This document shows positions 3,801 to 41,000 of a stretch of 64,000 bases of DNA, in pieces; the first letter of the stretch is position 1; each line of letters begins with the position of its first letter. The notes below the pieces were generated by a model that ran no database searches, was not told where the DNA came from, and saw nothing but the letters and a program-made list of their open reading frames with translations. This DNA is from Narcine bancroftii (taxonomy: Eukaryota), in assembly GCF_036971445.1 (NCBI RefSeq), contig NC_091482.1:58280001-58344000 (forward strand). Reading direction: 5' to 3'. The translations under genes were made by a program, and so were the position numbers.

Positions 3801-5493
3801 AGAAGACCGTGACTTCCTTTGGTGGCCTGATGGAGACTACAGTCAGAGTATGGTGGAATACAAAATGACAGGGCATCTATTTGGAGCACCTCATCACCAG
3901 ATTGTGCAAATTTTGCTCTTAGGAAGAGTGCTGAGGACAGCATGAAACAGTTTAGTTCTCAAGCTATAAGCACCATCAGGAATAACTATGTGGATAATGT
4001 CTTCTATAGCTACAGAAGAAAAAGCAATAGCTCTTTATCATGAGCTTCAAGGGAGGCTTTCTACTTACTGAATGGATAAGTATCAGTCGCCATATATCGG
4101 CTGCCATACCTGAAATAGAGGGAAGAAGAAATAAAGAATCTAGACTTAGACCATGACAACCTTCCCATAGAGAGGGTGTTAGGTATACAATGGTGTATTC
4201 AGTGTGCGGTTTTTAAGTTCAAAATCATTTTGAAGGACCGACCTCTCACAAGAAGGGGGATTCAGTCAAAAGTCAGTTCAATATATGATCCCATAGGAAT
4301 ATTGACACCAGTAGTCCTGACTACCAAGAAGATCCTACAAGATTTGTGTAGGAAAGGGATTGGTTGGGATGATGAGATACCAGACTCCATTGTACAGGAA
4401 TAGACGTGTTGGATTCAGGATCTTCATAAGCTGGACGACTTCAAGATTGATGGATGCTTCAAAACCATAAATTTTGGAACTGTGACATCTGCTCAATTGC
4501 ATTATTTTGCTGATCCATGTGAAGACATTACAGAACTGTTTGTTACCTGTTACTGCCTGATAACCAGATTCAGGTACATTGTGGATTTGCAATGGGACAA
4601 GGCCAGAGTGGCTCCATTAAAAACAGCCACTATCCCTTGAATGGAGTTGACGGCTGCTACCATGGTGAGCAGAATGTTGAAAAGAGAGCAACAGATGGAA
4701 CTAACATACTCTATATTTTGGACTGATAGCACCTCAGTGCTCAAATACAATAAAACCACAAGGTTTTGAACTTTCGTGGCTAACAGAATCACTGAAATTG
4801 ATAAAGTCTCGTATCCAATACAGTGGAGATGTGTTGATGCAGTTGACATTCCTGCCGATCTGGCTTCCTGAGGTTTAAAAAGTCGAATCCTTTCTGAAAA
4901 AAGAAATGTGGGTGTCCGGGCCTCAATTTCTTCTACAGCCTCAGGAAGAGTGATCTCAAAAATACTGATAAATTCGAAGAAATCTGACCAGAAGATCTTG
5001 AAATCAAGAGTAAGACTGCAAATGCTGTTCTGATACTATCTGAATAAGGGGACCATGTTACCCACTTAATCTATTACTTCTCATCCTGGACATGTTTGAA
5101 AAAGGCAACAGAATGGATGCTCAGACTTAAGACTGCTTCTGTATCGTAGCAGAAAGGAAAAACAAACAAGCAGTTCTTGCTCAGCCTCATCTCAATTACA
5201 TTAAACAAAGAGATCCACCAAAAAGGAGGCAGGAAATCTTGAGACTCCAGGAAATCGAGGTCTCATGGTTGAAAAACTGGCTAATGGTGAGGAGGAGATC
5301 CTGTTTTTTTTTCTGTCAGGGGAAGAGATTTGCAGATGAAATTTCAAGTCTGAGCAAGGGAATTAATATTTAAAAAGACAAGCCACATTTGTAAATTCAG
5401 CCCCATTCTGGTGTATTGAGAGATGGGGGGTTGGGGGGAGGGGGGGGATTCGACTTAGCAGAGCAGCAATGTCAGAAGAGATTAAACTTCCTA
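870..5493 (+). mobile_element. Decayed BEL/Pao LTR retrotransposon internal region (gag-pol), cut by the gap
   Basis: Gag-like FNGDPLQFPVFMRNFE...LYYLEQFTSGQP (1736-2107); RT LNSQLLQGPDLT...ADIEAMFHQV...FLWW (3625-3945); LGIQW...SSIYDPIGILTPV (4176-4403); many stops and frameshifts; start approximate, no LTR seen. Confidence 0.9.
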
Positions 5494-5693
5494 NNNNNNN
5501 NNNNNNNNNNNNNNNNNNNNNNNNNNNNNNNNNNNNNNNNNNNNNNNNNNNNNNNNNNNNNNNNNNNNNNNNNNNNNNNNNNNNNNNNNNNNNNNNNNNN
5601 NNNNNNNNNNNNNNNNNNNNNNNNNNNNNNNNNNNNNNNNNNNNNNNNNNNNNNNNNNNNNNNNNNNNNNNNNNNNNNNNNNNNNNNNNNNNN
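5494..5693. other. Assembly gap (200 N)
   Basis: Run of exactly 200 N, which looks like a placeholder for a gap of unknown size. Confidence 0.99.
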
Positions 5694-10460: not shown

Positions 10461-11314
10461 GTCTTTGGTTTGTTGATTATTCAAGAATCCGATGGCAGCG
10501 GGGACATTATGTGATTGGACTGAGGGCTACTGGCTTCATGTTTATTTGGAAACAAAAGTAATTTGGACTCGGGGCCAAAGGGGTTAATTGCATGAAAGCA
10601 AAGAACAAGACTCAGACCTGATGCAAGGTCTGAACACAAAACATTGACCATCACCTTGTGCTCATGTGCTCTCCTTGACTTGCTGAGTTAGTTCAGTGTT
10701 TTTTTCTCCCCTCCTGATTCTTGTGTCAACATTTGGTCTTAAGAGACAGCCAAGCAGCATTGAGTACAACTCCGGTTTTTGAATAGAATTTTAAATAATA
10801 CACCTGCACTTCCTTCCCTTCAAAACAACAGCTTGCGTACAGATCTTAGCTCAAAGCCACACATACAGAGGTGCCTCCTGTCTAGGGAGAATGCAAATCA
10901 AAATGTGATGCATCAATGTTACAGCTCTCAAGTTCTCATTATCTCAAGAATTACTCTCTGATGTAGCAACATTATTGAGTGTTAACTTAAGGTTAAAATA
11001 ACGTGAACATATGGAATGGATAACCCAGAAAGACATCGTGGAAGCTTCAAAATGTTAAGAGCCAAAGAGGCTCTAAAGGTAAAGTTGCAGAAAAAATAAT
11101 GCCAATCCCAGATGATATTTCTGCTTTAGCAGTGATGGTCATATTCACTCCAACCTCAACAATTCGCTGGGCTCACAGGAAGGGAGAACCATGAGGAAAC
11201 CACCTCAATGTGACATCTTTTAACTTCATGTGGCCAAAATGCACTGCAAGGGGAGAAATAGGGTCTTTTGCAGGTGAAAAACGCTGACGCATGGCTCTGT
11301 TTACTCCTTCGCAG

Positions 11315-11425
11315 TACAATAGTGTTTGGATTCCTGACCCTGATGAGATCTGGCAGTCGGCAGAAATCACCAAGGACTACAAGAAGGGATCCGATGTACT
11401 ACATCTGCAGTTGGAAGATGGCACT
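11315..11425 (+). CDS. MYO5C: MYO5C exon 2 ([18 protein letters not shown]...LEDGT)
   Basis: cttcgcag|TAC ... ACT|gtaagt; 111 nt; N-terminal SH3-like region. Confidence 0.93.
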
Positions 11426-12230: not shown

Positions 12231-13455
12231 TGATCAGGGAGCCTCTGGATCTTTTGTGCCCTTTCTTGCAATAAATATATTTATGGATAGATTTTTACAT
12301 AGTTGGGGAATTAAGGGATATGGGGGAAAGGCAGGTAGGTGGAGATGAGCCGATCAGCCATGATCTCATTGAATGGCGGAGCAGGCTTGACTCCTGCTCT
12401 TATTTCTTGTGATACAACTGGAGCTATTCCACAAACATCACAGATAGTGGGTAGTTCATTGATATTTATGCAGTTCCTTAAAATGCTTTTAATGTTTTGG
12501 GCCTCAAATTACTCAAGTCAATGAGTACAAATCTTTTGTTGAATTGATGAAGTAATGGAATATAATAGCTTGTAGGTTTGGCATGGAGGTAAATTTTCAA
12601 GCTGACACTTGATAGACATAGGATACGTGTTAAGTTTCTTTTGAAGTGTTTACAGTACATTGTTCCTTTTGCTCTGTCAAGCATGAGACTGCGGTGTTTG
12701 ACAGAGCTTTCGCAGAGCTGCAGACTGCCTGGAGTACAACTACTGTAATGTGGGAGTTTGGACTGAATTACTTCCACTCTAAAATAGATGGCATTAAATA
12801 TTCAACATGCTAAGAAAAAAACAAGCCTGCAAAGGTTTAAAATAAGGAGGAGAGCCAACAGCGGTATGAACAAAATAGACAGAATGTGTCACTTCATATG
12901 CATTCCTGAAAACAGTCACGTCAATTAATCAAGATAAATCATGGAAATAAAAACACAAAATGCTGGAGAAGCTCAACTGGTCAAACAGTGTCCTTTATGT
13001 AGCAAATATAGAAGCGATGTTTCAGGCTTGAGCCCTTCATCAAGGTGTGAGAGGATGTCAGCAGGCATCCGAACAAAAAGGGGAAGGGGGGGCTGTGGCA
13101 AAGGCAGGAGATGATGGGTGGAGGAAGGAGGGAGGGGACAGCAGCGATCAGGGGAGGAGGGATGGCTGGGTGGGTAGAGGGGGAAGGGAGGGGAGAACTG
13201 AAAGGAGGAGGGGAAAGAAAAGGCGAGCAAGTTTAACAGAAAGTTGACAGTGCCCAGGATGAATAAACTCGGTCTCTTCGTTTTCTTTGAGTGACATAAA
13301 AGGACGGTGTAAAATCTCGATTTTATCCTGACCCCAGTTCCCCATCTCTGTGATACTTGCACAGTCTCTCTTTTTGTGCTGCCTGCACTTCTCTGGTTTC
13401 CTCTCGCATCTGAAGAGCACACAAGGTTAACTTTTTTAACATTTTCAATTTAGAT

Positions 13456-13779
13456 CAGTGGTTCTCAACCTTTGTCTTTCCACTCACAGACCACTTTAAG
13501 TATTCCCTATGTCATCAGTGCTCTGTGATTGGTAAGGGATTGCTTAAGGTAGGATGTGGGTGGGAAGAAAAAGTTTGAAAACTGCTGTTGTAATCATCCT
13601 TCATTGATTCGTGATGTGCACGGTTTCATCACTCCAAAGGAAATGGGCCGACTACCATTTTTCTCAAGCAAAACATTTCAGTAACAATTGGTTCTCAACC
13701 TTCCCTTCCCACTCAGATCCTACCTTAAGCAATCCCTTACTAATCACAGAGCACCGATGACTTAAAGTGGGAACCACTG
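13456..13779. mobile_element. hAT/Charlie-like composite MITE
   Basis: Termini CAGTGGTTCTCAACC ... GAACCACTG; two inverted sub-units around a spacer. Confidence 0.8.
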
Positions 13780-14599
13780 CTTTAGCCGTACAGCTCAGCA
13801 TGAGGTCCATGAGCCTGGGCCACCCAAATACCCCAATTAACCTACAGCCCCATACATTTTGGAAAGTTGGAGGAAACCCACATGACGTGGGGGGGAACTG
13901 GACAGCGCCATATTCTAACCTGCAAAAGTGTTGCACTAACTGCTACGCTAGCCAATTGTCCACTGAACATTACCTCGACTGTCAGGCTGGTGGCAGATAA
14001 GGGTTACAGAGAAATAAACGAGGGAATAGGATTGCTCTGAGAACCCACAAAGACTTGATGGGTCAAATGGCCACCTTTGGCCGAAGAGACTATATAAATC
14101 CAAGAATTCTGAGCATGCACAGTTGGAAACAAACGCAGGTCAGGACATGATTGCGCTGCATTCTCTGTGGATCCCAGGGATGGAGCTTCATCTTACTGGG
14201 TCCATTCCTGTGCCAGGTTGAAGTTGGTGCTGTGCCCATGAGTAGCGATGAGAAGGAGGTACGGAAGGGCTGCCAAGAAAATGGCAAATGAAGCAAGTTC
14301 CTTTTATTTATTCCACTTTCTGATTTCAATTTTAGCTTAATTTAATTTCTTGTTTATTTCATTTTTATTATTTCTAACACGTGTTTAAAGGTCTGCTTTG
14401 CCTGTATCCAAATATGGATTTGCTATTCAAGCCAGTTTTCCTACTTTCTTGCTCTCCCTTATTTGACTGAAGTTATTTATGTGGATAGAGTCTATAAGAG
14501 GGAACACTAATCAAATTCCTTTTCAATTTTGAAATAATGTGATATTTGTTGCATGTGGAATGTTTGTACTTTAGATCAAAGTAATATTACCAGTAAGAA

Positions 14600-15930
14600 G
14601 TAATTAAATATGGCCAAACTCATCCTTTGAACAACTTTTCTCTCAACTCCCCTCACCTTCTCAGAATCTATGGGATCTGTTTGAGCCTGAGCTGGTCCTG
14701 ACTTCAGTGGGATGTTTAGAACTGTTTTTGTTGCACTTCCCCTCAAACCCACTCCCTCAGCTTGATTAATTGCGTTGGAGCTAATTCACACCAAGGTCAA
14801 ATTTCCGCACAGTTCCACCCGGCTCCCACTTTCACACCATCCCCCTCTGACTCTTTCTGCTCATTTCCAGAGATTTCTCCCTCTGTGTCGGGAGAAGTGC
14901 TGTCCACAAACATCTATGGCAAAGCTACCAGCTCCCACTACATTTGGTGTTAACGATGTGGTTTCCTCTATATTAGAGAAGTCAAATGAAGATGGGACGA
15001 CATCTTTCTATAGCCCACGTGTTCAATCTGCAGCACTGACCCTGAACTTGCTATTGCCTGCCACTTGCACGCTGACTTATCTATCAGCACCTCCTTCAAG
15101 CTTGAGGAACAGCACCTCATCTTTAAACTGGGCATGTTGCAGCCTTCAAATTCTGCAACTTTCCCCCATCTTCATCAGAACTGGCTACTTCTGCTATAAA
15201 TCCTCCTACTGTGATATTGGAACAGGCCTCAGCCCTGTTGTTGTTAACATGTTACACTTTTTATCTGTTTTATCCCCCCTCTACAACTTACCTTTGCAGC
15301 ATCCCTGGCCCCACCTACCATAGATACTCCCTTTGTACTATCCCCCACCCCCACATTTGCCTACAGCATAAAACCAACTTTTGTTTTCTATTTCCCAGTT
15401 CTGTTGAAGGGTCTTTGTCCTGAAATGGTAATGCTCTAGGCCCTTTCAAACTGCCATGTACAATGGGGTTAATCGGGCAATTTGCCCGGTTAGTGCCCCA
15501 GTTATGCGGCAGTTAGAAAGGATCTGACCCGGTCAACCCCATCGGAATCCAACTGGATCCCTCAGAGGGAGTCAGGAAACCTAGTTACACTTACCTATAG
15601 GTCGCGTCCACAGGCGATTTGAAAAAGAAATTGGCCGACCCGTTTTATTCTGGTGATGTCAGCGCTTGCCTGCTTGCATCACTTGGCAGCCAGCACCCGA
15701 ACATCTGGTGGTGCCTCCGGTGAGTACGTGACGCATTGTTGTGGGGGTGGGATCCCCCTTAAATTGCCGGGTTGGCAATTTAATGGGTAAATTCCCCCTA
15801 CCCTTGCCCTAGTAATTGCTCCAGGGTCCCAGGAGGGCGACCCAGGTGCTGCAGTTTAAAAGAGGCTCTTTCTCTTTTACAGATGCTGCTTGAAAAGTTC
15901 AGTATTTTCAGTATTACCACTTTTATTTTA
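14600..15930 (+). mobile_element. Penelope-like element relic (RT and GIY-YIG remnants plus terminal repeat), interrupted by a MITE
   Basis: STNIYGKATSSHY resembles PLE RT TDIYYKPTDSHSY; TTGAGGAACAGCACCTCATCTTTAAACTGGGC encodes LEEQHLIFKLG; hammerhead-like CTGTTGAAGGG...GAAA near 15401-15426. Confidence 0.7.
15439..15866. mobile_element. PIF/Harbinger-like MITE
   Basis: TIRs GGCCCTTTCAAACTGC / GCAGTTTAAAAGAGGC; GC-rich interior. Confidence 0.6.
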
Positions 15931-16742
15931 AATAGTCTTTTTAACTCTGATATAAGGACAGCATTTCCTTTTGTTAATCAAGCAGAGCATAACATTTGAG
16001 ATCTATCTTTGATGCATTATGTAATGAAAAAATTCTTATTGATGATCTAGCATTTTGGGGATAATGCAAAGTTTAGAAGTGATTTTAAATCTAGTTAAAA
16101 GAAGCAATGACTGCTCATGTGGTGACCTGGGGAACTATGTTAAAGGATTTGACAATGAGCAATGGCTAACATTTTAAAAGTTTACAAGCCATCAGTAAAA
16201 GGATTATCTTTAGCATTCAGAATGTGCCTCAGTCTCCGTAGCAACTGAAACTGTATTGGCAAGTGCTGTAGAGTTCCCATAGAGATTCGGATCAAATGTA
16301 AAGTCACTAGAAGTCAGGCTGGATTGGGACATGATGGCCCTTTGCTTGGATCTGTGAATGTTCTCCTTGACCCAATCCGAGGTAGTCGGTGACCCTGACC
16401 AGGCCTGGGGCAGCGGCACTCGACCTTGGAGTTGCACTAAACCTTGACCAGTCAAACTAGCTGGATAAAAAAATTGAGCTTAAATTATTCCTTGACCCTG
16501 ACAAAGTGTGAAAATAAGTAAAATGTATGTTGATTATATGATTTATTATTAATAATAAATAACTATCTGCATTTAAGCCTCAAGCAATACTTATTCTTTA
16601 TTTGGTAAAACGTTGTTGGCATGAAATTGTCTTCAAGATACAAGCTTTCTGTCACTGTAAGGCTACCTCAGTGCTTAACTGCAGCAAATACATTTAACAA
16701 GTAAACATTACTTTCATTTCTCATTTAATTTGAATTTTTTAG

Positions 16743-16914
16743 GAACTAAGCTATCCCGTTGATGCCATTAAGACCCTTTTACCACCACTGCGGAATCCTG
16801 ACATTCTCGTGGGTGAAAATGACCTCACAGCACTCAGTTATCTCCACGAACCGGCGGTTCTGCACAACCTCAAAGTGCGCTTCATGGATTCCAAACTCAT
16901 CTACACTTACTGTG
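16743..16914 (+). CDS. MYO5C: MYO5C exon 3 (ELSYPVD...[35 protein letters not shown]...YTYC)
   Basis: tttttag|GAA ... TGT G|gtaaga; 172 nt. Confidence 0.95.
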
Positions 16915-16989
16915 GTAAGAAATAAAAACCACAAAAGATTGGACTGCATGCAAATCTCAACTATGTAAATCTTGACTATGTAAATAAGA

Positions 16990-17320
16990 CACTGGAGCAG
17001 AAACAGGCTATTTAGCCCATTGAGTCTGCCCCACCATTCCATCATGAGCTGATCCATTTTCCCACTCAGCCCCACTGTCCGGCCTCTTCCCCATATCCTT
17101 TGATGCCCTGGCTAATCAAGAGCTTATCAGTCTCTACCTTAAATACACCCAATGATTTGGCCTACACAACCACCTGAGGCAAAAAAAATCCACAGATTGG
17201 CTGAAGAAATTCCTCTGTATCTCTGTTCTAAGTGGATGCCCTTCAATCCTGAAGTTGTGCCCTCTTGTCCGAGACTATCCCACTGTGGGAAACAACCTTT
17301 CTGCATCAACTCTGATCATC
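16990..17320 (-). mobile_element. CR1-clade LINE 3' fragment
   Basis: Reverse complement resembles the 3' end of the CR1 copy at 47600-47890. Confidence 0.75.
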
Positions 17321-17367
17321 CACATCTTGACTCTATAATGAGAACAACTGTTTCCGATTTATTTCAG

Positions 17368-17512
17368 GTATTATTCTTGTGGCTATTAATCCATACAAAG
17401 AAATACCAATCTATGGAGATGTCATCATTCATGCGTATAGTGGGCAGAATATGGGTGACATGGATCCCCACATCTTTGCGGTGGCAGAAGAAGCTTACAA
17501 GCAAATGGCCAG
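17368..17512 (+). CDS. MYO5C: MYO5C exon 4 ([10 protein letters not shown]...[19 protein letters not shown])
   Basis: tttcag|GT ... AG|gttaat; 145 nt. Confidence 0.95.
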
Positions 17513-19510
17513 GTTAATTTTTCCAATTGTTGGCTTCCAGGTCCATAAGTTACTGTTTCACGCAATAACTTTTTAGTGTAAAGTTTACTTGCACCACAAA
17601 TATTCCGTCAAAGTCATTTCACTTTTTAAAAAGAATACCAATGCAGGTAAAAAGAGAACTGTGGTTTTAAGGAAATGCAAGGTGTATGAATGAAGTTGGC
17701 TCTAGACTGATTCCAATGCGTGGAGTCCAGCGGCAGAGGGTTGCAGGGACGGGTTCCCTTCAGTGACTGGATGAGAAAGGCTGGAGCCAGTGAGGGAGAT
17801 TCAGTGCATTGCAGCCCAATGCAGTTGACCGCCCATTGTCCAGGAGAGAGAGAGGTGAAAAATTGCTCTAAATATTGCCTAGTATAAAACACAGAGGAAA
17901 ATGGGACCACCCCCCACCATCTCATGAAACTTTTAAATATTTCCTTCTTTGACCATGTTGGTTTTAGTATGATTACACTTCGGACAACATTTTTATGACA
18001 TTTAAAAGATATTAGATCAGTTCAAGCTTTTGCTTTATTCTCCAAGTACCTTCAAATACAAAATAGCTAACCTTTCTTGTTGGGCTGTATTCAGAAACAG
18101 AATAGTCCTGAAACTCCCTAGATCTGTGGGGAAAATGAGAATTTAAATATGAATGATATTTGATATGAGTTCAAATATATATTCAAACTAATTTAACACT
18201 GTATTCAGTGAAGATAATGCAAAGATTGAATACGCCGCAATCTAATAACCACTGGTGGAGTTTATATCATCACATTACAAAGTGTCTCAGGAATTTGGAA
18301 CAACCTGACCCTTCTTTTCATTAATCATCTTCCGTTCTGTATGTAACTGATGTTTCTAAATTAGATTAAATTAGAACATATTTGCCTTGTAAATCCAGTC
18401 AAGCGATGCCAGAGTAGACTGCATGCAAGGATGTATTTGTATAGGGGCATATAATCCCAGAAACGGGCCCTTCAGGGCACCATGTTGACCATCAAGTACC
18501 TATAGGCTCTACACTCATGCCATTTCCCTTGCCTCCTCTGCCCTGGCAATTCAAGTGCTCATCCAGAAGTCGTGAGAGTACATCATCATGACCTCAGATT
18601 GCAGCCCACTCTCAGTGAGCATGTGCTCTTCCTCAGTAAACCTCTTATTTCTCACCAGAGCCCAATCCCTCTGACATTAGATGCCTCTGCCACGGTGATA
18701 TTGTCACAACTAATTTTATCCATCTCTATCAGGTCCCCCCTCTGGTTGCTCTGCACCAAGGAAAGAAAGTGCAACCTGTCCGGTCCCTTCTGATAACAGA
18801 AACATTCCATCCCAGGCAAATGTCCTGCTCATTCTCCCCTGCACCCTCTCCAGTGTAGAAACATAGTGTAATTGAAAGTAGACGCCAGGCGTGGAACCAG
18901 TAATGGCAGAGGATAAAGTGAAGGTAGGAAATGAGAAGAGGCAAAGTGCTCCAAGTAAGGAATAGCAAATTTTAGATTAAATTTAACAGAATGTGTCCAT
19001 TAACATATTGAATACTCATGTAACGTTTCTGTGCTAGCCATGTGAAAGCATTAACCCCATTAAAACAGGCACCTGTGTAAAGTCAGAGAGTACAAAAGCA
19101 GTGGGAATGTGATATGTCTACACCCACACTTCTCAATACATTTTGTTCAAGTTGGCAGACATCAAGGGTTGATGTCAAATTGAAAGATTACAATAACTTT
19201 TTTTAAATAATAACAATGGCAACTGCTGATTACATGTCAAGAGGATTTAGTTCTTGGGGTTTTTCTGTAGAAATATTTAGTTTAGGATATAGAAAACTGT
19301 TATTAACTAAGAAATATTTCAATCTGATGTTCTTGAGTCAAACAAGTTTACGGGTTGTTATACAAGTCAAATAAAATGACGGTGCTAATCTTAAATTCAT
19401 GTTTAACATTTGTATTTTTTCATCTCTTTGGTTTATTAAATGTTTCCTCAAGGAGTCATGGAATTTTAATTTTAGTTTGATCAAAGACTCTTCAAAGAGG
19501 AACTGTTACA

Positions 19511-20629
19511 GAGAATGGGAGAGAAAAGGGATTAAAAGAATAGAAAATTGTTTTTTGGGAAATAATTTATTATCATTTGAACAAATGAAGTACAAATATG
19601 GTACAACTCACGGTACAAAGTTTGCATACCACCAACTGAAAACCTACTTGAAGGACAAATTGGGAAGCAGGCTGAGGTTACCAGAAGGAAGCAGCTGTGA
19701 ATATGTGATTTCAGACACAATGATAATTAAAAGATTTATAACAAACATGTACATCAAACTGCAAGAGAAAGAGAACAATGAAATAAGCTGTAAACCCAAA
19801 CAAAAGTGGGAACAAGATCTAAACATAAAGATAAAAAATGAAATATGGGAAAAGCTATGCTCCGGAACTATGAGATATGCAATAAACACGAGGTTACGCA
19901 TGATACAATATAATTCGTTACACAGGCTATATATCATGCCCCAAAAGTTAAATAAATGGGAACCAACGGTATCAGATAGATGTTTTTGCAGTAAGAAGGA
20001 AACGGGAACAACAGTACATGCAATTTGGTCATGTGAAAAAGTGGAAAAGTTTTGGGAAGATCTAAATCAGATCTAAATAGACAAATCACAAAAAATAACA
20101 TAACAAAAAATCCAGAGATCTTTCTTCTAAGTAATATAAGAAGTAAAGAATTAGGCCTCAAACTGGATGAAGCACAAAAAGTATTTATTATGATAGCCTT
20201 AGCTGTAGCAAAAAAATGTATAATGTCAACCTGGAAATCAGAAGAGAGCCTGAGAGTACAGCAATGGTACATGGAAATGAATAAATGTATTCCATTGGAA
20301 AAAAATAACATATAATTTAAAAAATAAAGTCACATTATTCGAACAAATTTGGGAACTGTACATGGAACACAACAGAGAGGGCCTACCGCGGACCTCCACC
20401 CCCTAGAATGAGAAGAAGATGAAATGAACTGACGCAGTGTGTAAAAGTAGATGACACAATTTTCTTGTTTATTTTCATTGTGTGATGACATTGTTTATTG
20501 TATATGTTGAACTTTTAGTGGGTTTGGAAGGGGGTGGGAGGGAAGGGAGGGGTAAAAAGGGGAGAAAATGACATTGTGTATTTTGGTTAATATGGTTCAT
20601 AGTGTGAAAAATAAAAAACTTTAAAAAAA
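19511..20629 (+). mobile_element. 5'-truncated L1 (ORF2 C-terminus, 3' UTR, poly-A) with 17-bp TSD
   Basis: TSD AAAGAGGAACTGTTACA at 19494-19510 and 20630-20646; zinc-knuckle-like CFCS...HAIWSC; AATAAA at 20610-20615 then an A-tail. Confidence 0.93.
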
Positions 20630-20679
20630 AAAGAGGAACTGTTACAATAATCCTTCATGCTATTGACCCCTTGCATTAG

Positions 20680-20836
20680 GAAGAATCGGAACCAGTCTAT
20701 CATTGTGAGTGGCGAGTCCGGAGCAGGGAAGACCGTGTCTGCCCGTTATGCTATGAGATATTTTGCCACAGTAAGCAAATCCAGCAGCAAAGATTGTGTA
20801 GAAGATAAAGTCCTTGCATCGAATCCTATAACAGAG
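20680..20836 (+). CDS. MYO5C: MYO5C exon 5, P-loop ([28 protein letters not shown]...ASNPITE)
   Basis: cattag|G ... GAG|gtaaga; 157 nt. Confidence 0.96.
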
Positions 20837-20855
20837 GTAAGAAGTCTGTAAATAT

Positions 20856-21050
20856 AGTAAAGCCCTTAGTATCTGGCACTGGATTGATAGATGCCAGTTA
20901 AGTGAGTTTTCCGGTTGCTTGAGTCTGTGTGAATGGATAACTAATAGCGAGGTGTGCCAATTTTAACTTGTATTTTTTTTTAACCTGTTTATTTTATGCA
21001 GTTTTTTTTTGCCAGTTGCTTGAATTCTGGATAACAGAAATTTTACTGTT
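20856..21050. mobile_element. Tc1/mariner-type MITE; further copies about 25805-26010 and 49212-49412
   Basis: TIR-like CAGTAAAACCC(C)TGGTATCC / GGATAACAG..TTTTACTG shared by three copies. Confidence 0.65.
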
Positions 21051-21124
21051 TCTGCAATAACCAGAATAAAATTAAGAGCCCTGCCAACTTTGAAGGGTTA
21101 ATGAGGTTAATCAATAGTTTATGC

Positions 21125-21337
21125 CAGTTATTCTCAAAGGAGGCCATACAGGACCCACCCCTACCCAACCCGGAGGCCATAGCACATTAGCACATTTAAG
21201 TGTGGTGGGGGGGGCACAGTCTGAAATCATAATTTTTAAATGTTTTTGTTTTATGTAGTCAGGAGGGAAGGGGGGGGGGGCATAAACTTTGAGCTGTCCT
21301 AAGGGGGCCATAGCCAAAAAACAGTTGAGAATAGCTG
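21125..21337. mobile_element. hAT-like MITE
   Basis: TIRs CAGTTATTCTCAA / TTGAGAATAGCTG; no clear TSD. Confidence 0.6.
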
Positions 21338-22705
21338 GTGCCAATAGAAAATAATTTTGATGTTTCACAATTATGTCCACCATCCCAAGTTTAATTAATT
21401 TTAGCCTGAAAATTGTTGCATGCCCTTCCTCTGCTATTTACGTACCACTTTAACTCTGACTCTCTTTCACTTACCAAAGTTACCGTGCACTCTGGAGATA
21501 TTAGTATTCATTTCAATTCAGATTTCCTGTCAGAGTACATATATGATATCACATACATCCCTGAGATTCCTTTTTCCTGCAGGCGCAGCGCCGCCTATTG
21601 GCAGTGCAGAAAAAAACTGTAGACAGCGTTTACGTGTAAACAAATAACTGTAAATAGACAATGAACATAAACTGTGCAGTACAGAGAAGATGAAAAGATC
21701 AATAAAGTGCACAAGAGTCCTGAAATGAGTCTCTGATTGAGTTTGTCCTTGAGGAGTCTGATGCTGTTCCTGAACCTGGTGGGGCGAGTCTTGTGACACA
21801 AATAACTCTACCCTGACAGCAGCAGTGAGAACAGAGCGTGTACTGGGTGATGTGGATCCTTGATGATCGCTACTGCTCTCCGACAGCCGTGTTCCCGTAG
21901 ACGTTCTCGATGATTAGTTGATGTACAATATTATTCATAGCTTAAGGCACAGTGATTATTGCCATGGAAATGGGTTCCTTACACTGTTTACATTCAGAAT
22001 GTATTGCAATTGACAGAGATAAAGCCAAGTTTAGGATATGAAGGCCTTCAAGTGGATGTAGATGAATAACTCCTGGGAGGAAAGGTCAGGGGTGAATTCT
22101 TGTGCCATGAGAAGAGGCCAGTAAAGCTGAGATTATTATCCTTGCAGCAAGTTGAGGAGAGATATCTTAAAGGTATTTCAAATAATGGACCATCGCAACC
22201 AAAAAGAAACTGGGTGAAAGGCAGAGAAGATAGATGATAGGTAGTCAGCAAATAACCAAAACCGTTGAAGCAAAGCATTTTCGTGCAGGGTATTTAGCAT
22301 CTGGAATGTGTTAGCTGATAGTTTGATCGAGACTGATCTGGTCCTTACTTTTGAAAGGAAACCAGATCAGAATTTGAAGCAGGGAAAAAAAATCTTTATT
22401 AATAAATATTCGGAAGGACAAGCAGCCTGCTTTGGTTGAAGTCCCTGCAAAGAAACAGTCAACTTTTTTTTACTTCCGAGCAGTTTCTAACCGTTGGGAT
22501 CTATAGTTGGAATAAATTGCATTTGGCCAATGCCATTCTTCAGTCAGCAAACGTCAATGCCTTAATTCAAAAATTTTCTTCATTAAATTGATAAAAAGGC
22601 TTTCACAAATGATGCTCATTGATTTAATTTTGAGCTATTTCCCATAAATAGTTCACTGCAGGATTACCTAATGCATGTTCTGCCTCAATATCTCCTTGTT
22701 TCCAG

Positions 22706-22849
22706 GCTATTGGAAATGCAAAGACAACACGAAATGACAATAGTAGCCGTTTTGGTAAATACACTGAGATCAGTTTTGATTACCGCTATCGAATCATTGG
22801 GGCAAATATGAGAACTTACTTGCTGGAAAAGTCTCGGGTGGTGTTTCAG
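22706..22849 (+). CDS. MYO5C: MYO5C exon 6, switch I ([19 protein letters not shown]...[11 protein letters not shown])
   Basis: ttccag|GCT ... CAG|gtaaga; 144 nt. Confidence 0.96.
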
Positions 22850-23251
22850 GTAAGAATCACACTGGGTGCGGACAAGTTTCTAAAACACGGCCCTGTATGA
22901 ATTCCACAGTGCTCATACGCCTTTATAATTTGTCCTTTCCTCTGAGATTCAATATTGGCCATGATCAGCATGCGCATGGCCAATCACACACTTCAAAATC
23001 CTGTTCCTCTTTCTTTCCATCGCCATAGATCCCTTTGACATGAAGGAAACGTACCAATCTGACCCCTGGAATGTAGTTATTGATTTTGCTTCCTGCACTT
23101 TCTGTGGTAGAGATCTCTAGACATTCTCCACCTGCTGGATAAACAACTTTCCCCCGATCTTAGTTTTAAAAAGTATCCCATATACCGAGACTTTCCAGAC
23201 ATTGGGAATTCTTCCTGCATCCATGGCGTGAGTTGCTCATACAATTGATTA

Positions 23252-23873: not shown

Positions 23874-24152
23874 TAGTTCTAAATTCTAAAATTCCCTGTT
23901 GACTCACTGATCCGATCCACCTGATAGGACCCAACTGAGCATTGTTTCCATCTGCTCTCCATGTTCTCATCATGGAAAGTCAGTCCAACATCGATGCTTT
24001 AGATAATCAGATTGCTGGATCAGTTTAAAACAAAAAAAGAGATTAGTTGTAATCTAATATTTACCTTTGTAATCGGTGGGCATGGTGAGTAATTTTCCTT
24101 CAGCCACTTACTTAAATGGCTGCACTTCCTGTGTTGGACATATTCATTACTA

Positions 24153-24551
24153 CCATAGGTACTTGTGTAAAAGTCGACCTCTCCACTTCCCCAACTACCC
24201 ACGTGTTCAAGCTCACAACACCCTGATCGTGAACCCTCACCTGGGCCATGCCCGTCCAAGCTCCCAATCCCCTGGCTGCCCACCCAGCAGAGCTCCCGAA
24301 GCCCTGACAGCAAACCCTCGTCTTGGCCGCCTGGCCATCCGAGCTCCTGATGCCCTGACCGCGGATCCTCACCCCGGCCACGTGCCTACCAGAGCTCCTG
24401 ATGCCCTGAAAGCAGACTTCCACCCGGTTCTGGCCATCCAAGCTCACGATGCCTCGAAAAATGCAGGTACTTACTTTGGTCAAAAGTATGTCCTGTGTAA
24501 AACCCAAAATAACCTGAAAAAAAATCTTGACTATTGCACAGGTGTATATCG
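24153..24551. mobile_element. Mariner-like MITE with GC-rich internal repeats (GAGCTCCTGATGCCCTGA); second copy 54126-54510
   Basis: TA-flanked termini and a shared internal repeat unit and right end in both copies. Confidence 0.65.
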
Positions 24552-24854
24552 TAATATTGAGCAGAGTACCCGGTATTAAGTCTGGCCTCAATTAAATAGG
24601 TTAACTGTGAGCACTTCAGCAGGCCTGGGATGCTGACTGAAGTAGGATTGATCAATCAGGTTATACTCTCCTGCAGTCCACCACCCCAAATAAACTCCCC
24701 ACTTTGCATCGTAACATCATTGCTTGTTCACCACCTTCCCTGGGCTTATTTCAGGGTCAACATCGACTTGCATCTCCAGTGACAGGGCATATCAATGTTC
24801 CATTCTTACTACCAGTTTTGAAATAACATTACAACATTTATTTGTTGAATTTAG

Positions 24855-24936
24855 GCAGAAAACGAAAGAAATTATCATATATTCTACCAACTCTGTGCAT
24901 CTGCTGATAAATCTGAGTTCAAGCACCTGAAGCTTG
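24855..24936 (+). CDS. MYO5C: MYO5C exon 7 ([27 protein letters not shown])
   Basis: atttag|GCA ... CTT G|gtaggt; 82 nt. Confidence 0.95.
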
Positions 24937-25331
24937 GTAGGTATTTTGACGATTTCCTGCTTTGAAATCCTGTTCATTTCAATTTAGTTTTTTTTTTGAT
25001 GTACAGCACAGTGACAAGCCCTTTTTGCCCACGATCCCGTGCCGCCCACTTAACCAACAAACCCTGTACGTTTTGAACGGTGGGAGGAAATCGGTGCACC
25101 TGAAGGAAACCCACGCCATCATGGGGTGAACGTACAAACTCCTCACAGACGGTGCCAGATTCGACCTCCAGTTGCTGGTGTAGTAACTGCGTGGCACTAA
25201 CCTTTTGTCCTACTGATGAGGAATCTGCGACGCAATTGGGGCAACGCTTGCGAAGGAGGGTATTTTTCTTCTGAGATTCAACAGTTTTCATACAATTTTT
25301 TTCTAATGAGATCAATTTAAATTACTTGCAG

Positions 25332-25439
25332 GTGATGCGGAAAGCTTCACTTACGTGAGCATGGGTGGAAATGCTGTAATTGATGGTGTTAATGACCGAG
25401 CGGACTTGAATGAAACGCGAAAAACGTTTTCGCTTCTGG
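25332..25439 (+). CDS. MYO5C: MYO5C exon 8 (GDAESFTYVSMGGNAVIDGVNDRADLNETRKTFSLL)
   Basis: ttgcag|GT ... CTG G|gtaagt; 108 nt. Confidence 0.94.
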
Positions 25440-26232
25440 GTAAGTGAAGGGCATTCGACAGAACTGGCTCAGTTGGTGGATGTCCTGGTGCTCAGTCCTG
25501 CAGCCCATAAACTCGTCTGTTCTGGGTTCAGAAAGCTGAGTAGGAGTCTGGCTCCAGGAGACAAAAATGGCTTGGCTTTGGCTGAAAATGATTAGTCACT
25601 TAGTTCTGATTCCCATATTTATTCCCTTTATATTGAAAATCCTAACTTGATGAAGCAAAAGTACAAATCTTAAATGTGAGGCTTTGTATTGCATAACTAC
25701 CTTCCCATTGCCCGTGAAGTCATGGAGAAAGTCTTTACCAATCAGCAAAGCTTCACCTCCAGCCTTTCAATTTCTTCAGTTTTTCTGAATGTTCAAAGAT
25801 AAGTGCACCAAAACTCCTGTTATCTGGGATTGAAGCAACTGGCAACTTCAAGCAACCAGCAAAAAAAATCATGGAAAATAGGTGTAAAATACAGGTTTTA
25901 AATTGCCGTGTCGTTAGTTCTCCAATCCATGAACTCTCAAGCAACTGGAAAATTCACTTATCCGGCATCCACCAATCCCCATAGGTACGGGATACCAAGG
26001 GTTTTACTATGCTTGTATTTTTCAAAAAGAATTAATTTTAATTTGAACACATTGAAGCAAACAAAATAATTGAAGAAACAATGAAACTTGCCTTTATTGT
26101 ATCTTTCTTCCTGGGAGAATAAAATTTCCTTTAGAGTGAATTGGAGGAATCTGTCCCAGGGCTCACGTGCAGGATTAGTGATTAGATTCTCCAGTGTCAT
26201 ACAGGGAATTCTACTCCGCTGATGCTGCACCA

Positions 26233-27140
26233 CTAAACTCTAACACCAATTTGACCACTGAGTTTATTCCAAATTGTAATAACATGTTTTAGTAAAGGGG
26301 CTTCCTTGGGACCAAATAGTAATTTGGAATTCCATTTGTATATAAACATTTTGGCTATCTTCTTATGCAGTCCCAATTTTACCCAAGAAGACTTGTCCCC
26401 TCCATCAAAGAGGGAGGAGACAAACTTCATTTGGGTTCCCCAATAATAAAGTCTGGGAACTTTAATCCTCCCAGATCATAATCCAGGTTAATTTATCGAT
26501 AGAGACTGTGGAAAATCACCCTTCCACAGAAACTTCATAATATATTTATTTAAATTCTGAAAGAATTGTTGTAGTACTAAAACAGGTAGGTTTTGGAAAA
26601 GATACTGTAATTTAGGCAATATAATTCATTTTTATACAGAGCATTATTCATTTATTCATTTCAAAGCAGGAAATCATCAAAATACCTACCAAGCTTCAGG
26701 TGCTTGAACTCAGATTTATCATCAGATGCACAGAGTTGGTAGAATATATGATAATTTCTTTCGTTTTCTGCCTAAATTCAACAAATTGACCCTTTCAATC
26801 AAAGTTATCCATTTATTTAAATCATCCTTAACTTTATGAAGCGAGGGAAGATAATTCAACTTGTATAAATTTGATAAATTATTATCTATTACCAAAATAT
26901 CTTATCCCATTAATTGAGAGTCTCTTTTAACGTAATCATAATTCCCACCCGTAAGTGGAATAACTTTGCTTTTATCCCAATTAACTTCATAGACTGAGAA
27001 AATCCTGAAAAATTCCAATTTAGACTACAATTTTTGTAATGAACCACTGGGTCAGTCAGATATATCAGAACAATATATCGATTGTCAGCAAATAGATTGG
27101 TTTTATGTTCTTCCTGGTTAACCATGAAGCCTTTTATGTT
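26233..27140 (-). mobile_element. Old L1 ORF2 (RT region) fragment, interrupted by an inverted copy of exon 7
   Basis: HKTNLFAD...YLTDP (RT catalytic motif region), WITLIERVN, LPKLQYLFQNLP, KFLWKG in decayed frames. Confidence 0.8.
26658..26786 (-). repeat. Inverted duplicate of exon 7 plus flanking intron (copy of 24840-24968)
   Basis: Reverse complement matches 127 of 129 nt by manual alignment. Confidence 0.95.
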
Positions 27141-27893
27141 CTACAACTTAACGAGTCATGGGACAGGCTGAGAAAATGGTTGCTGTTGATTTAACTCTTT
27201 AATCCCACTGCTGCACCAGCTCTTACGAGCAGTCAAGAGGAGCAGAGAGCGATGGAGAGAAACAGAGACTGACACAGACAGAGGGGAGAGAGACAGACAG
27301 TGGGAGAGAGAGAAAGACAGAGGGGGACAGAGGGAGAGGAGGAGATGGAGAGAAACCAACGGGCCAACACCAGTTGGGAAACAAATTTGGATGAATGTAC
27401 AGAGCGAGGTGCCTCAACCGGAACACTCTTGGTCTTCCAACTGATTCATGTCATTGGGAGCAAAGATTGCTTGGCTGGGATCTTTCTTAGGAAATGGTAC
27501 TCAGATGATCTCATACATCAAATGTATGGCGAAGTGCCTCTGATCAGCTTTTCAAATTGAGCAATAAAGACACTTTAAAAAGACACTGACAAACTAAAAT
27601 TCTAATTGGTTGGTGAGAGCTCTAAGATTTGAATTAGCAGTCAATAGCGGGATGTTAGCCACATTTTTTCCAAACTTTTAACCTTTGTTGATAATAGACT
27701 TCATATCTATTGTAAAACCAATGATCCTTTTCCAAATTGTAATACTGCTTATTTCCACTTGTACAAAGTCTCGCCTTCATCCAATTGTTTTTCACCAAGC
27801 AAAGGGTGCATCGCTTCTGCTCTCTGTAATTCAGGTCCTTCTAATATGACAGAAGAAATCCAGGAACTTTCAATATCAAAATCTGTGTTTCAG

Positions 27894-28000
27894 GTTTGAA
27901 ACAAGACTTTCAAATGGATGTCTTTAGAGTACTGGCAGGCATTCTACATTTAGGAAATGTAGAAATTAGAGCTCTGAACGAAGAGAAGTCTTCAGTCCAA
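27894..28000 (+). CDS. MYO5C: MYO5C exon 9 (GLKQDFQMDVFRVLAGILHLGNVEIR...SSVQ)
   Basis: tttcag|GT ... CAA|gtaagt; 107 nt. Confidence 0.94.
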
Positions 28001-28606
28001 GTAAGTTTGCAACTTTTAAATCTTCAGTAAATCGTGATGTACATAATTTCAGTAAATGTTTATTAGCTTTGGATAGAGGGCATTTTTTTTAGCTGCTTTT
28101 TTGAAAAAAGGTTAAGGTAGCAATTAGTGCAATGCTGTTACGGCGCCATCGACACCCATTCGAATCCCGCGCTGTCTGTAAGGAGTTTGTACGTTGTTCG
28201 CGTGTCTGCATGGGTTTCCTGTGAGTGCTCCCCTTTCCTCCCACTATTCGAAAAGTACAGGGGCTGTAGGTTAATTGGGTGTAATTGGGTAGCTTGGGCT
28301 CGTGCTGGAAGGGCCTGTTACCGTGATATATGCCTAAATTATAACATAATAGTTTGAATATTTATTTAATTTCTATTTTGAATAAAACATTGAGTTTAAT
28401 GCTTATGTTCCTGCTCTTATGAGCATGGGAAATAGAAGCATCTCTTGGCCCCCACGCTTGCTTAACAATTCCACGTTCAAGGCTCATGCTGTCTCTTAGA
28501 CCACATTCCTGCACAATCCTATCCTTGTTTTCTTTCATTTAAAAAGACGATTCATCTCTGTTGTCAACATGCCCAATGTCTGAACCTAGGTAGAGAATTA
28601 CAAATT

Positions 28607-38039: not shown

Positions 38040-41000
38040 TTAGTCATTCAGCATTCTCACTGGCCCATGGGAAGAAGCTGTTCCTCAGCCTGGTGGTGCT
38101 GGCTCTGATCCTCCTGTATCTCGTTCCCGACAGGAGCAGCTGAAAGATGCAGGATTTTTGTGCACCCTCTTCAGACAAAGATCCCGGTAGATCATGTTGA
38201 TAGGGGCGAGAGAGACAGCAGTGACCCTCTTTGCCGCTCTTATGGACCTGTGGAGTGAGAGAGACGGCAGTGGCCCTCTCTGCCACTCTTATGGTCTTGT
38301 GAATTGACCTCCTATCCATTTCTCTGCAGCAACCATACCACATTATGATACAGCTAGCCAGGACACTCTCAATAGAGCTCCTGTAGAAGGTTTTTTTTAT
38401 TATTTTTTATTTTTTACACTGTGAACCATATCAACCAAAATTTATACAAACGTTTCTCATTAAATATACACAGTGACATTTTCTCCCTTTTTTGCCCCCT
38501 ATCCTCCCTCCCCCCTTCCCACCCCCCTCCAAAACCAATAAATATTCAACATATACAATACAATAAAACAATCTCTTCACACAATGAAAAATAAACAAGA
38601 AAAATGCATCATATACTTTTACACATTGAATCAAGTCGTTTTGTCTTATTATTTTAGGGGGTGGAGGTCCGAGGCAAGCCCTCTCTGTTGTGTTCCATGT
38701 ACGGTTCCCAAATTTGTTCGAATAATGTGACTTCATTTTTTTAATTATATGTTATTTTTTCCAATGGAATAATTTGTTCATTTCCATGTACCATTCCTGT
38801 ATTCTCAGACTCTCTTCCATTTTTCAAGTTGACATTTTACATTTTTTTGCTATCGCTAAGGCTATCATAATAAATCTTTTTGCGCTTTATCCAATTTGAG
38901 GCCTAATTCCTTACTTCTTATGTTACTTAGAAGAAAGATCTCTGGATTTTTTGGTATGTTTTTTTTTGTGATTTTATTTAATATCTTATTTAGATCTTCC
39001 CAAAACATTTTCATTTTTGTGCATCCCCAAATTGCATGTACTGTTGTTCCCAACTATCTGATAATGTTGGATCCCATTCTTTTAACTTTTGAGGCGTGAT
39101 ATATAACCTGTATCATGCGTAACCTTGTGTTTATTGTATCCTTTATAGTTCCAGAACATAACTTTTTCCATGTTTCATTTTTTATCTTTACACTCAAATC
39201 CTTTTCCCAGTTTTGTTTAGGTTTATAGCTTATTTCATCATTTTCCTTATCTTGCATCTTAATGTACAGTTTATTATAAATCTTTTACCATTGTGTCTGT
39301 AATCACATATTCAAAGCTGGTAATCTCAATCTGTTTCCCAATTTATCCTTTAAATAAGCTTTCAGTTGACGATATGCAAACATTGTACCATGAGTTATTC
39401 CATATTTGTACTTCAACTGTTCAAATGTTAATAAATTATTTCCCAAAAAACAATTTTCTATTTTGATTCCTTTTCTCTCTCATTCTTTAAGGGAAAAGTT
39501 ATTTATTGTAAAAAGGATTAGTGGATTTTGAGTCAATAACAATTTTGGTATTTGGTAATTTGTTTTTTTCCTTTCTAAGTGGATCTTCTTCCCTATATTA
39601 AGTAAATGATGCAGTACTGGTGAGCTTTTATATTGCACCAGCTTTTCATCCCACTTATAAAGTATATGTTCCGGTACCTTCTCCACCATTTTATCTAGTT
39701 CTATCTTAGTCCAGTCTGGTTTTTCCCTTGTCTGGTAAAAATCTGATAAATACTTTAATGGTGCGGCTCTATAATAATTTTTAAAGTTTGGTAACTGCAA
39801 ACCACCATGGTTATAACTCTCTGTACATTTAACTAACGCTACCCTCGGTTTTCCCCCCTTTCCACAAGAATTTCCTTATTATTCTCTTTAGTTCATTAAA
39901 GAATTTCTCTGTTAAGGGAATTGGTAATGATTGAAATAAGTATTGTATCCTTGGGAAAACATTCATTTTAATGTAATTTACCCTCCCTATCAACGTTAGT
40001 GGTAATTCTTTCCAATGTTCTAAGTCTTCCTGCAATTTCTTTATTAGTGGCTGATAATTTAGCTTGTATAAGTGGCTTAAGTTATTATCTAACCTGATAC
40101 CTTATGTAATTCTTTTATTGATATTTCTAATTCTGTTAGGTATACTATGATGTCATCTGCAAATAAGATGATTTTATACTCCTTCTCCTTTATTTTTATC
40201 CCTTTTATTTTATTTTCTGTTCTTATCAGTTCTGCCAATGGTTCTATTGCTAAGGCGGACAATGAGGGGGATAATGGACATCCCTGTCTAGTTGACCTAC
40301 TTAATTTAAATTGGTTCGATACATATCCATTTACTGTTACCTTTGCCAACGGTCCATTATATAATGCTTTAATCCAATTAATATATTTTCTGGTAGAGTG
40401 AACCTCTGTAATACTTTAAATAAATAGTTCCACTCTTCTCTGTCAAAGGATTTTTCTGCATCTAAAGCAACAGCCACTGTTGGCTTCTTATTTCCTTAAA
40501 CAGCATGAATTAGATTAATAAGTTTACAGACATTATCTTTTCTTAATAAATCCAGTTTGATCTTGTTTTACTATTTTTGGTACACAATCAGCCAATCTGT
40601 ATGATAATAATTTTATTATTTTATAATCTGAGTTAAGTAGAGATATTGGTCTATATGATGCTGGTGTTAATGGATCTTTCCCTCTCTTTGGTATTACTGT
40701 AATTATTGCTGTCTTACATGAATCTGTCAAGTTTTGTGTTTCTTCTATCTGGTTCATTACTTCCAGGAGTGGACGAATTAATAACTCTTTAAATGTTTTA
40801 TAAAATTCTATTGGGAATCCATCCTCTCCAGGGGTTTTATTGTTCTGTAGCTTTTTCAATATATCCTGTACTTCCTCTATTTCAAATTGTTTTATTAGTT
40901 TGTTTTGTTCCTCTTCTTGCAATGTTGGCAGTTCAATTTTAGCTAAAAACTCTTCTATTTTATCATCTTGCCCCTCGTTCTCATTAATCTCTATTGTGTT

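What the first reader, a model, noticed from the sequence alone, without database searches (positions are those of the whole stretch)
24840..26786. Antisense copy of MYO5C exon 7, with both splice sites, inserted 1.7 kb downstream inside an L1 relic
Seen: 26658-26786 is the reverse complement of 24840-24968 with 2 mismatches in 129 nt. It covers the 15-nt acceptor side, all 82 nt of exon 7 and 32 nt of the donor side. It splits a decayed L1 ORF2 between ...WITLIERVN and IKMN..., next to about 19 nt of filler (GAATAAATGAATAATGCTC on the minus strand). It keeps intron sequence, so it was copied from DNA or pre-mRNA, not spliced mRNA. It is far better preserved than the host L1, so it is probably recent. 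Inference: this is a templated insertion from break repair. In the pre-mRNA it could form a stem of about 129 bp that masks both exon 7 splice sites and loops out exon 8. Skipping exon 7 (82 nt) or exons 7+8 (190 nt) would shift the frame. That would make it a built-in cis-antisense splicing/NMD switch, an ADAR substrate, or a driver of an exon 8 circular RNA.
Basis: partly seen in the sequence, partly recalled or inferred. Interest (0 to 1): 0.8.

Follow-up and report, generated by a model that had tools for sequence, protein, structure and literature searches.

The report
Backwards exon copy in MYO5C intron
An electric ray's myosin-Vc gene carries a backwards 129-base copy of one of its own exons in a nearby intron; it is likely a tolerated DNA-repair scar, because RNA assemblies from the species show the exon spliced in and similar backwards copies are common in this genome.

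Summary
26658-26786 is the reverse complement of MYO5C exon 7 plus 15 and 32 intron bases (127 of 129 identical). With a 19-nt filler it splits an L1-type relic without losing a host base. Read-derived contigs carry one junction and the copy's own variant; the filler junction was not covered. A 2-3 nt microhomology and a filler repeating an 8-mer from the flank fit template switching in break repair. The switch idea gains no support. RNA contigs from 2 of 2 samples laid join exons 6-7-8 and show no A-to-G change at 29 adenosines, though these animals are not shown to carry the copy and rare forms would be missed. Both differences break pairing. A 1.0-Mb sample of the genome held 7 comparable local inverted copies, so tens holding a whole exon are expected by chance. 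Human CHM and MANBA disease alleles show that longer inverted exon copies go with exon skipping, so a minor effect is not excluded. The scan noted the same class in at least four other genomes. Verdict: real, known kind, likely near-neutral.

The parts
24840..24968 (+). Source segment: last 15 nt of intron 6, MYO5C exon 7, first 32 nt of intron 7
24855..24936 (+). MYO5C exon 7 (82 nt, residues 252-279 of P0001); joined to exons 6 and 8 in RNA contigs
25332..25439 (+). MYO5C exon 8 (108 nt, in frame), lies between the two arms
26658..26786 (-). Inverted copy of the source segment in intron 8; differences at 26722 (Ala to Asp codon) and 26676 (CpG transition)
26639..26657 (-). 19-nt filler; with the last 4 nt of the copy it holds the 8-mer AAATGAAT twice, which also lies 7 nt into the adjoining host flank
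26784..26786 (-). 2-3 nt microhomology shared by host and source at the acceptor-side junction
26240..27139 (-). Decayed L1-type LINE ORF2 fragment that hosts the insertion; 88.6% mean identity to 29 related copies over the downstream flank
22706..22849 (+). MYO5C exon 6 (upstream partner of exon 7)
27894..28000 (+). MYO5C exon 9 (end of the 2454-nt intron 8 that holds the copy)

Best explanation
The feature is a backwards 129-base copy of MYO5C exon 7 with its splice-site flanks, set into an old LINE fragment in intron 8, and it is likely a tolerated scar of DNA repair with little or no effect on the main mRNA. Inferred origin: a broken or stalled DNA end in the LINE fragment paired through 2-3 bases with the opposite strand 1.7 kb away and copied 129 bases. 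It then made one or two short false starts on its own flank (the filler) and rejoined without losing a base. Since then the copy has decayed by two substitutions. Inferred reason for tolerance: exon 7 and the 395-nt intron 7 are engaged by the spliceosome before the copy is transcribed, 1722 nt past the exon 7 donor, so the predicted stem forms too late or too rarely to matter.
For: Shown: host sequence is continuous across the site in related copies (19 of 29 read AAT|TGTA). Microhomology at one junction; filler with two 8-mer matches to the first 30 nt of flank (shuffle P 0.026; 0 of 660 other 30-nt windows of the relic give two). DNA contigs of 3 of 3 same-sample runs run 26757-27023 with 0 differences, across the acceptor-side junction, and the collapsed contig carries the copy's A at 24904. 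RNA contigs X6 (4659 nt, depth 54.7) and X8 (1338 nt, depth 23.1) continue from exon 7 into exon 6 and exon 8 sequence, carry the source allele and show no other difference over 29 adenosines. The copy's Asp replaces a residue that is Ala in 113 and Ser in 3 of 116 homologues with the motif (120 examined). Both differences give mismatches (C.U, C.A), not compensation. Base rate: 7 local inverted copies not explained as repeat-family pairs in 1.0 Mb; 4 of 4 tested are two-copy in the genome search. That scales to about 13,000-23,000 per genome and some 30-100 whole-exon captures by chance, assuming 150,000-200,000 exons (the exon number is my assumption).
Against: The predicted duplex is very stable (-216 kcal/mol). 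Human inverted exon duplications go with skipping: CHM exon 12, and MANBA exons 8-9/8-10 with no normal transcript (PMC8756506, PMC6549551; passages read). The RNA contigs come from one study, are only guessed to be RNA by the tool (the exon joins argue that they are), drop rare forms, and are not shown to come from carriers. Frameshifted skip products would be removed by nonsense-mediated decay (general knowledge), so their absence is weak evidence. No contig covered the filler (depth 0 at 26640-26654 in X1). The junction contig has 30 letters on the copy side, one short of the tool's bridging rule. The microhomology is short enough to be chance. The timing argument was not tested.
Confidence: 0.75

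Rival explanations
1. Leaky by-product. The stem forms in a minority of transcripts and causes low-level exon 7 (or 7+8) skipping with decay, or scattered A-to-I editing. This slightly lowers myosin-Vc output but is not selected for.
For: 127 of 129 bases complementary, covering both splice sites; -216 kcal/mol. Long-range intronic stems can change splicing (PMC2724269, passages). Human CHM and MANBA alleles. Contigs cannot show rare forms.
Against: No skipped or edited form in the contigs laid on the copy in 2 of 2 samples. The stem is 129 bp with a 1689-nt loop, against about 1.65 kb with a 274-nt loop in CHM. A nearby ordinary inverted repeat pair (25045-25200 / 28124-28279) gives a predicted -186 kcal/mol, so strong predicted pairing is common background here.
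Confidence: 0.17
2. Private or polymorphic allele with a real effect. The RNA-sampled animals lack the copy, and in carriers it causes strong skipping as in CHM.
For: No RNA-sample contig covered either junction, and only one DNA sample shows the copy.
Against: The DNA sample looks heterozygous nearby (runs differ at 24687 and 24781), yet its junction contig runs unbroken at single-copy depth (7.9 against 7.1-8.1) and no exact empty-site contig was listed. This suggests both haplotypes carry the copy (inferred). Two substitutions in 129 nt, one a CpG transition, suggest age.
Confidence: 0.04
3. Selected cis-antisense switch. The copy is kept to couple exon 7 masking to decay, editing or an exon 8 circle, for example by tissue.
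For: It covers the whole exon and both splice sites; skipping 7 or 7+8 gives early stops; identity is high.
Against: Whole-exon capture is expected tens of times per genome by chance. Both changes break pairs. High identity fits a young age (1.6%, 95% interval 0.2-5.6%). Main RNA contigs include the unedited exon. A 108-nt single-exon circle is short for back-splicing (recalled, not from a call).
Confidence: 0.03
4. Assembly artefact: the copy or its filler junction was created by misassembly.
For: The filler junction was not covered by any contig in X1, and X1-X3 may be the sample the assembly came from.
Against: Independently assembled short-read contigs hold the acceptor-side junction exactly, break at the repeat edge and carry the copy-specific base. 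The host is split without loss. The copy has its own differences and a structured filler.
Confidence: 0.01

Closest known systems
Templated insertions from microhomology-mediated template switching (MMB-TI, MMBIR-like; Osia et al. 2021, PMC8421209, passages read)
   Same: Germline insertion copied from an intact template, short microhomology, more than one template in one event; such events are reported as ordinary germline variants (about 100 per person).
   Different: Here the template happens to be a whole coding exon of the same gene, 1.7 kb away; the pathway cannot be assigned from sequence.
Polymerase theta templated insertions (TINS; Carvajal-Garcia et al. 2020, PMC7165422, passages read)
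   Same: The AT-rich filler repeating an 8-mer from the near flank looks like aborted rounds of synthesis.
   Different: That paper finds first-round tracts rarely over 10 bp and locally templated; the 129-nt piece from 1.7 kb away does not fit.
Class 2 templated sequence insertion polymorphisms (Onozawa and Aplan 2016, PMC5110952, part 1 of 4 and passages read)
   Same: No target-site duplication or poly(A); microhomology and added bases; size within the 73-414 bp range of experimental inserts.
   Different: Those donors are distant and proposed to pass through RNA; this donor is local, and polymorphism is not shown.
Pathogenic intragenic inverted duplications with exon skipping: CHM exon 12 (PMC8756506) and MANBA exons 8-11 (PMC6549551); passages read
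   Same: An inverted copy of an exon and its splice sites downstream in the same pre-mRNA, made by template switching, predicted to form a hairpin.
   Different: Those copies are 1,752 bp and 13.1 kb, and skipping is seen in patient RNA (the hairpin itself was not validated in CHM). Here the stem is 129 bp, the loop 1689 nt, and the main RNA contigs keep the exon.
Conserved long-range RNA structures and inverted Alu loop-out skipping (PMC2724269; bioRxiv 10.1101/2025.03.07.642063; passages read)
   Same: Complementary arms over 1 kb apart that could mask splice sites or loop out an exon.
   Different: Those are defined by cross-species conservation or by intronic repeat pairs flanking the exon; here one arm is the exon itself and no conservation is shown.

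Membership tests
Templated insertion by template switching (MMB-TI type) | Insert copied from an intact template elsewhere | tested here: met
   Source exon intact, copy 127 of 129 identical, two copies in the genome search
Templated insertion by template switching (MMB-TI type) | Microhomology at resolvable junctions | tested here: met
   2-3 nt at 26784-26786; copy end AAAT matches the flank 8-mer used in the filler; short enough to be chance
Templated insertion by template switching (MMB-TI type) | Made by the MMBIR machinery | not testable with these tools
   Needs genetics; sequence cannot separate pathways
Polymerase theta TINS | Short insert repeated from flank near the break | tested here: met
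   Filler only: two 8-mer matches, shuffle P 0.026, 0 of 660 control windows; a 10-nt match to the source's opposite strand at 24973-24982 is a rival template
Polymerase theta TINS | First-round tract rarely over 10 bp and locally templated | tested here: not met
   Main piece is 129 nt from 1.7 kb away
Class 1 TSIP (L1 ORF2 retrotransposition) | Target-site duplication of 5 bp or more, poly(A) tail, TTTT/A site | tested here: not met
   At most 1 shared base, no poly(A), site reads AAT|TGTA
Class 2 TSIP | No duplication or poly(A); microhomology and added bases | tested here: met
Class 2 TSIP | Donor from a distant region | tested here: not met
   Donor 1.7 kb away in the same gene
Class 2 TSIP | Polymorphic in the population | tested here: inconclusive
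   One DNA sample only; no exact empty-site contig listed
Skipping-causing inverted duplication (CHM, MANBA type) | Inverted copy of exon and splice sites in the same pre-mRNA | tested here: met
Skipping-causing inverted duplication (CHM, MANBA type) | Skipped form dominates the mRNA | tested here: not met
   Exon 6-7-8 joins in contigs of 2 of 2 samples laid; carrier status of those animals unknown and decay could hide skipped forms
Conserved long-range splicing structure | Arms conserved across species | not testable with these tools
   No related genome is offered; run X5 of another organism had no contig on the copy at 95%
Conserved long-range splicing structure | Changes keep or restore pairing | tested here: not met
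   2 of 2 differences give mismatches
ADAR editing-complementary sequence | A-to-G changes in the paired exon | tested here: inconclusive
   0 of 29 adenosines changed in 2 contigs; majority editing not seen, low-level editing invisible in contigs
DNA transposon terminal inverted repeats | Repeated family with target-site duplication, arms bounding an element | tested here: not met
   Two copies only, one arm is a coding exon, exon 8 lies between

The most novel reading that the evidence does not exclude
The copy is a working, self-made antisense element: in some tissues or at some transcription speeds it pairs over exon 7 and both splice sites and sends a measurable share of MYO5C transcripts to skipping and decay, or has exon 7 recoded by ADAR. 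Local inverted insertions at 4-7 per Mb would then seed tens of such exon-masking elements across ray genomes as a standing source of new splicing control.
Probability: 0.1. Interest if true: 0.6.

Novelty: new member of a known kind. Interest (0 to 1): 0.2.

Why it matters
As it stands it matters little: it is one more repair scar. Its modest value is as a natural counter-example to the CHM and MANBA disease alleles. A near-perfect 129-bp antisense copy over a whole exon seems tolerated at 1.7 kb, which helps bound the stem length and distance that exon masking needs. That matters for interpreting small inverted duplications in patients. The sampled rate of local inverted copies (4-7 per Mb) makes a genome-wide test possible: are whole-exon antisense copies fewer than the 30-100 expected by chance?

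Tried and rejected
Run search listed no holder on record as RNA; four small-share runs were guessed RNA, of which 2 of 4 (X6, X8) were laid. The filler junction was not covered in X1; the tool says a hole proves nothing. The two joints across the site in X1 (26599-26784 and 26623-26803) were rejected as empty alleles: one has 26 diverged letters between, the other breaks at the host's private 1-nt difference, so they look like other LINE copies. Run X5 (another organism) had exact 122-166 nt pieces elsewhere in 24000-28000 at depth 2-5 but nothing on the copy at 95%; uninformative. The second lay was placed on 26520-26940, so exon 6-8 and 6-9 joins and exon 8 back-splicing were not directly examined. 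Retrotransposition and transposon-end origins were rejected (membership table). In the base-rate count, 66 local pairs outside the window were listed. Tandem arrays, direct pairs and pairs covered by repeat-family hits were dropped. 9 inverted pairs were inspected and 2 dropped as repeat-family pairs, leaving 7; 3 further inverted hits among repeat copies at B1 105-112 kb and 2 in B3 and B4 were dropped without inspection. 4 of the 7 were searched genome-wide, and that search skips common words. Which arm is the insertion was not established for these. The five blocks were chosen by round coordinates, not at random. Direct Pfam scans of the host flanks failed on stop codons; family was inferred from tblastx to the RVT_1-positive element at 38-43 kb. 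Searches for this case in print: 'MYO5C + exon skipping + inverted repeat' 0 papers; 'inverted + antisense exon + duplication + exon skipping + secondary structure' 0; searches gave nothing closer (listings only). Solnick and Lee 1987 was not held; Solnick 1985 and Eperon 1988 were seen only as citations. No supplementary files were read; they are unlikely to bear on this locus.

Full report
Observation. The longest near-perfect inverted pair in the window has arms 24840-24968 and 26658-26786, 129 nt, 98% complementary, 1689 nt apart. The arms differ at two places: 24904 C against A, and 24950 C against T. A search of the window's genome with the exon region gave 3 matches: the source, the copy and an 82% identical exon of a paralogue on C8.

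The gene. The exon 10 peptide is 100% identical to P0001, named myosin-Vc of Narcine bancroftii by NCBI; its best matches among solved structures are myosin-Vc motors. Intron 7 is 395 nt and intron 8 is 2454 nt. The copy starts 1722 nt after the exon 7 donor and 1219 nt after the exon 8 donor. Skipping exon 7 or 7+8 gives a stop within 9 codons; skipping exon 8 alone keeps the frame.

The host and the junctions. The flanks match a family of repeats whose copies align continuously across the site. They are 41-59% identical in translation to the element at 38-43 kb, which carries a Pfam RVT_1 match; the L1-clade label rests on recalled ORF2 motifs. The relic spans about 26240-27139 and is 88.6% identical on average to 29 relatives over the downstream flank. 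Of the 29, 19 read AAT|TGTA at the site, so 146 nt were added and none lost. There is no target-site duplication or poly(A). Host and source share 2-3 nt at the acceptor-side junction. At the other junction, the copy's last four bases plus the 19-nt filler contain AAATGAAT twice, and this 8-mer lies 7 nt into the flank. Shuffled fillers reach two such matches in 2.6% of 20,000 trials, and 0 of 660 other 30-nt windows of the relic do. A 10-nt match to the source's opposite strand at 24973-24982 is a rival template. This anatomy fits template switching with aborted synthesis (PMC8421209 and PMC7165422, passages). The pathway is inferred.

Is it real? In three runs of one DNA sample, which may be the assembly's source, a contig runs 26757-27023 without differences across the acceptor-side junction. 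Another ends 30 nt inside the source arm, and the collapsed contig carries the copy's A at 24904. The filler junction was not covered. The runs differ at 24687 and 24781, which suggests two haplotypes, while the junction contig is unbroken at single-copy depth; I infer that both haplotypes carry the copy.

Age. Two differences in 129 nt are 1.6% (95% interval 0.2-5.6%). If the copy were as old as its host (5-6.5% per branch), two or fewer changes would have probability 0.01-0.045. It is therefore younger than the host, as any insertion must be; this is no sign of selection. One change is a CpG transition. The other puts Asp where 113 of 116 homologues have Ala and 3 have Ser, so it arose in the copy. 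In the predicted RNA stem both are mismatches.

RNA. Two of four guessed-RNA contig sets were laid on the copy. In both, one contig matches the exon part only (26688-26773), continues into exon 8 sequence on one side and exon 6 sequence on the other (compared), and carries the source allele. X6 runs on for about 4.1 kb past exon 7 without a break. Neither shows an A-to-G difference at the 29 adenosines. Limits: one study, carriers not shown, rare forms dropped, skip and back-splice joins not directly examined, and decay would remove frameshifted forms. The single NCBI protein model also includes exons 7 and 8.

How common? In five 200-kb blocks of the same genome I listed local pairs (60 nt or more, 93% identity or more, 50-10,000 nt apart). 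After dropping tandem arrays, direct pairs and repeat-family pairs, 7 inverted pairs of 67-318 nt remained. The 4 of 7 searched genome-wide had only the two local full-length copies. That gives 4-7 per Mb, or 13,000-23,000 per genome (Poisson interval for 7: about 9,000-48,000). With their lengths and an assumed 150,000-200,000 exons, 34-99 would hold a whole exon with both flanks by chance. The estimate is rough, but it removes the surprise. The scan's earlier notes list the same kind of feature in at least four other genomes (unchecked notes, not evidence).

How it most likely works. Shown: a templated inverted insertion; exon 7 included in the main RNA contigs. Predicted: a -216 kcal/mol duplex if the arms meet; an ordinary inverted repeat pair nearby scores -186. 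Inferred: exon 7 is committed to splicing before the copy is transcribed, in line with the view that pre-mRNA folding is mostly local, though long-range stems do act in some genes (PMC2724269, passages). I put 0.75 on a near-neutral scar, 0.17 on a leaky unselected effect, 0.04 on a harmful allele absent from the RNA samples, 0.03 on a selected switch and 0.01 on an artefact.

Comparison with what is known. It works like, and meets the sequence features of, a microhomology-mediated templated insertion. It is not a class 1 insertion, and it fails the distant-donor feature of class 2 (PMC5110952). Its layout matches the human CHM allele (1,752-bp inverted copy of exon 12, 274-nt loop, skipping seen, hairpin not validated) and the MANBA allele (13.1 kb, no normal transcript), but the skipping that defines those was not seen. 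This locus was not found in print.

Verdict. Real; a new member of a known kind; likely tolerated. Interest 0.2. The boldest reading left open, a working self-antisense element, has probability about 0.1 and would deserve about 0.6.

Noticed in passing
window about 26803-26810 (minus strand), and L005-L033: The host lacks 12 nt about 19 nt upstream of the insertion, removing one arm of a short inverted repeat seen in most relatives; 8 of 29 relatives also have small deletions in the same 40 nt. Possibly a break-prone hairpin; no baseline computed.
   Followed up: partly
G000:C29:57025650-57027877; C29:57159905-57161864; C1:200130457-200131315; C8:100037569-100041919: Four other local inverted two-copy duplications (318, 82, 176 and 67 nt; 96-100% identical), of the same kind as this finding.
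   Followed up: partly
window 25045-25200 and 28124-28279: Inverted pair of a common short repeat (72%) in introns 7 and 9, flanking exons 8-9; predicted duplex -186 kcal/mol.
   Followed up: partly
window 16743-16914 (exon 3): Both RNA contigs stop 471 nt upstream of exon 7, which would be 25 nt inside exon 3 if they follow exons 4-6; may mark an alternative path or a word shared with a paralogue.
   Followed up: no
window 11291-11425 and the N gap near 5500-5700: The NCBI model starts MALFTPSQ directly in front of exon 2, unlike the MAVAELYTK start of two relatives, so the true first exon is probably missing from the model; the window has 200 N.
   Followed up: no
window 19510-20400, 38400-42900, 62862-63742: Larger LINE copies in opposite orientations form long inverted pairs (up to 584 nt, 82%) across the gene.
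   Followed up: no
window 1727-5035: Decayed frames with a weak DUF1759 match (E 0.045), probably an LTR retrotransposon relic.
   Followed up: no
window 25094-27360, run X5: A run labelled as another organism holds five 122-166 nt pieces identical to this intron DNA at low depth; unexplained.
   Followed up: no
window 26667-26741: On the sense strand the insertion brings CAG sites (the first after a pyrimidine-rich run) and one weak GT donor; no pseudo-exon was seen in the RNA contigs.
   Followed up: partly
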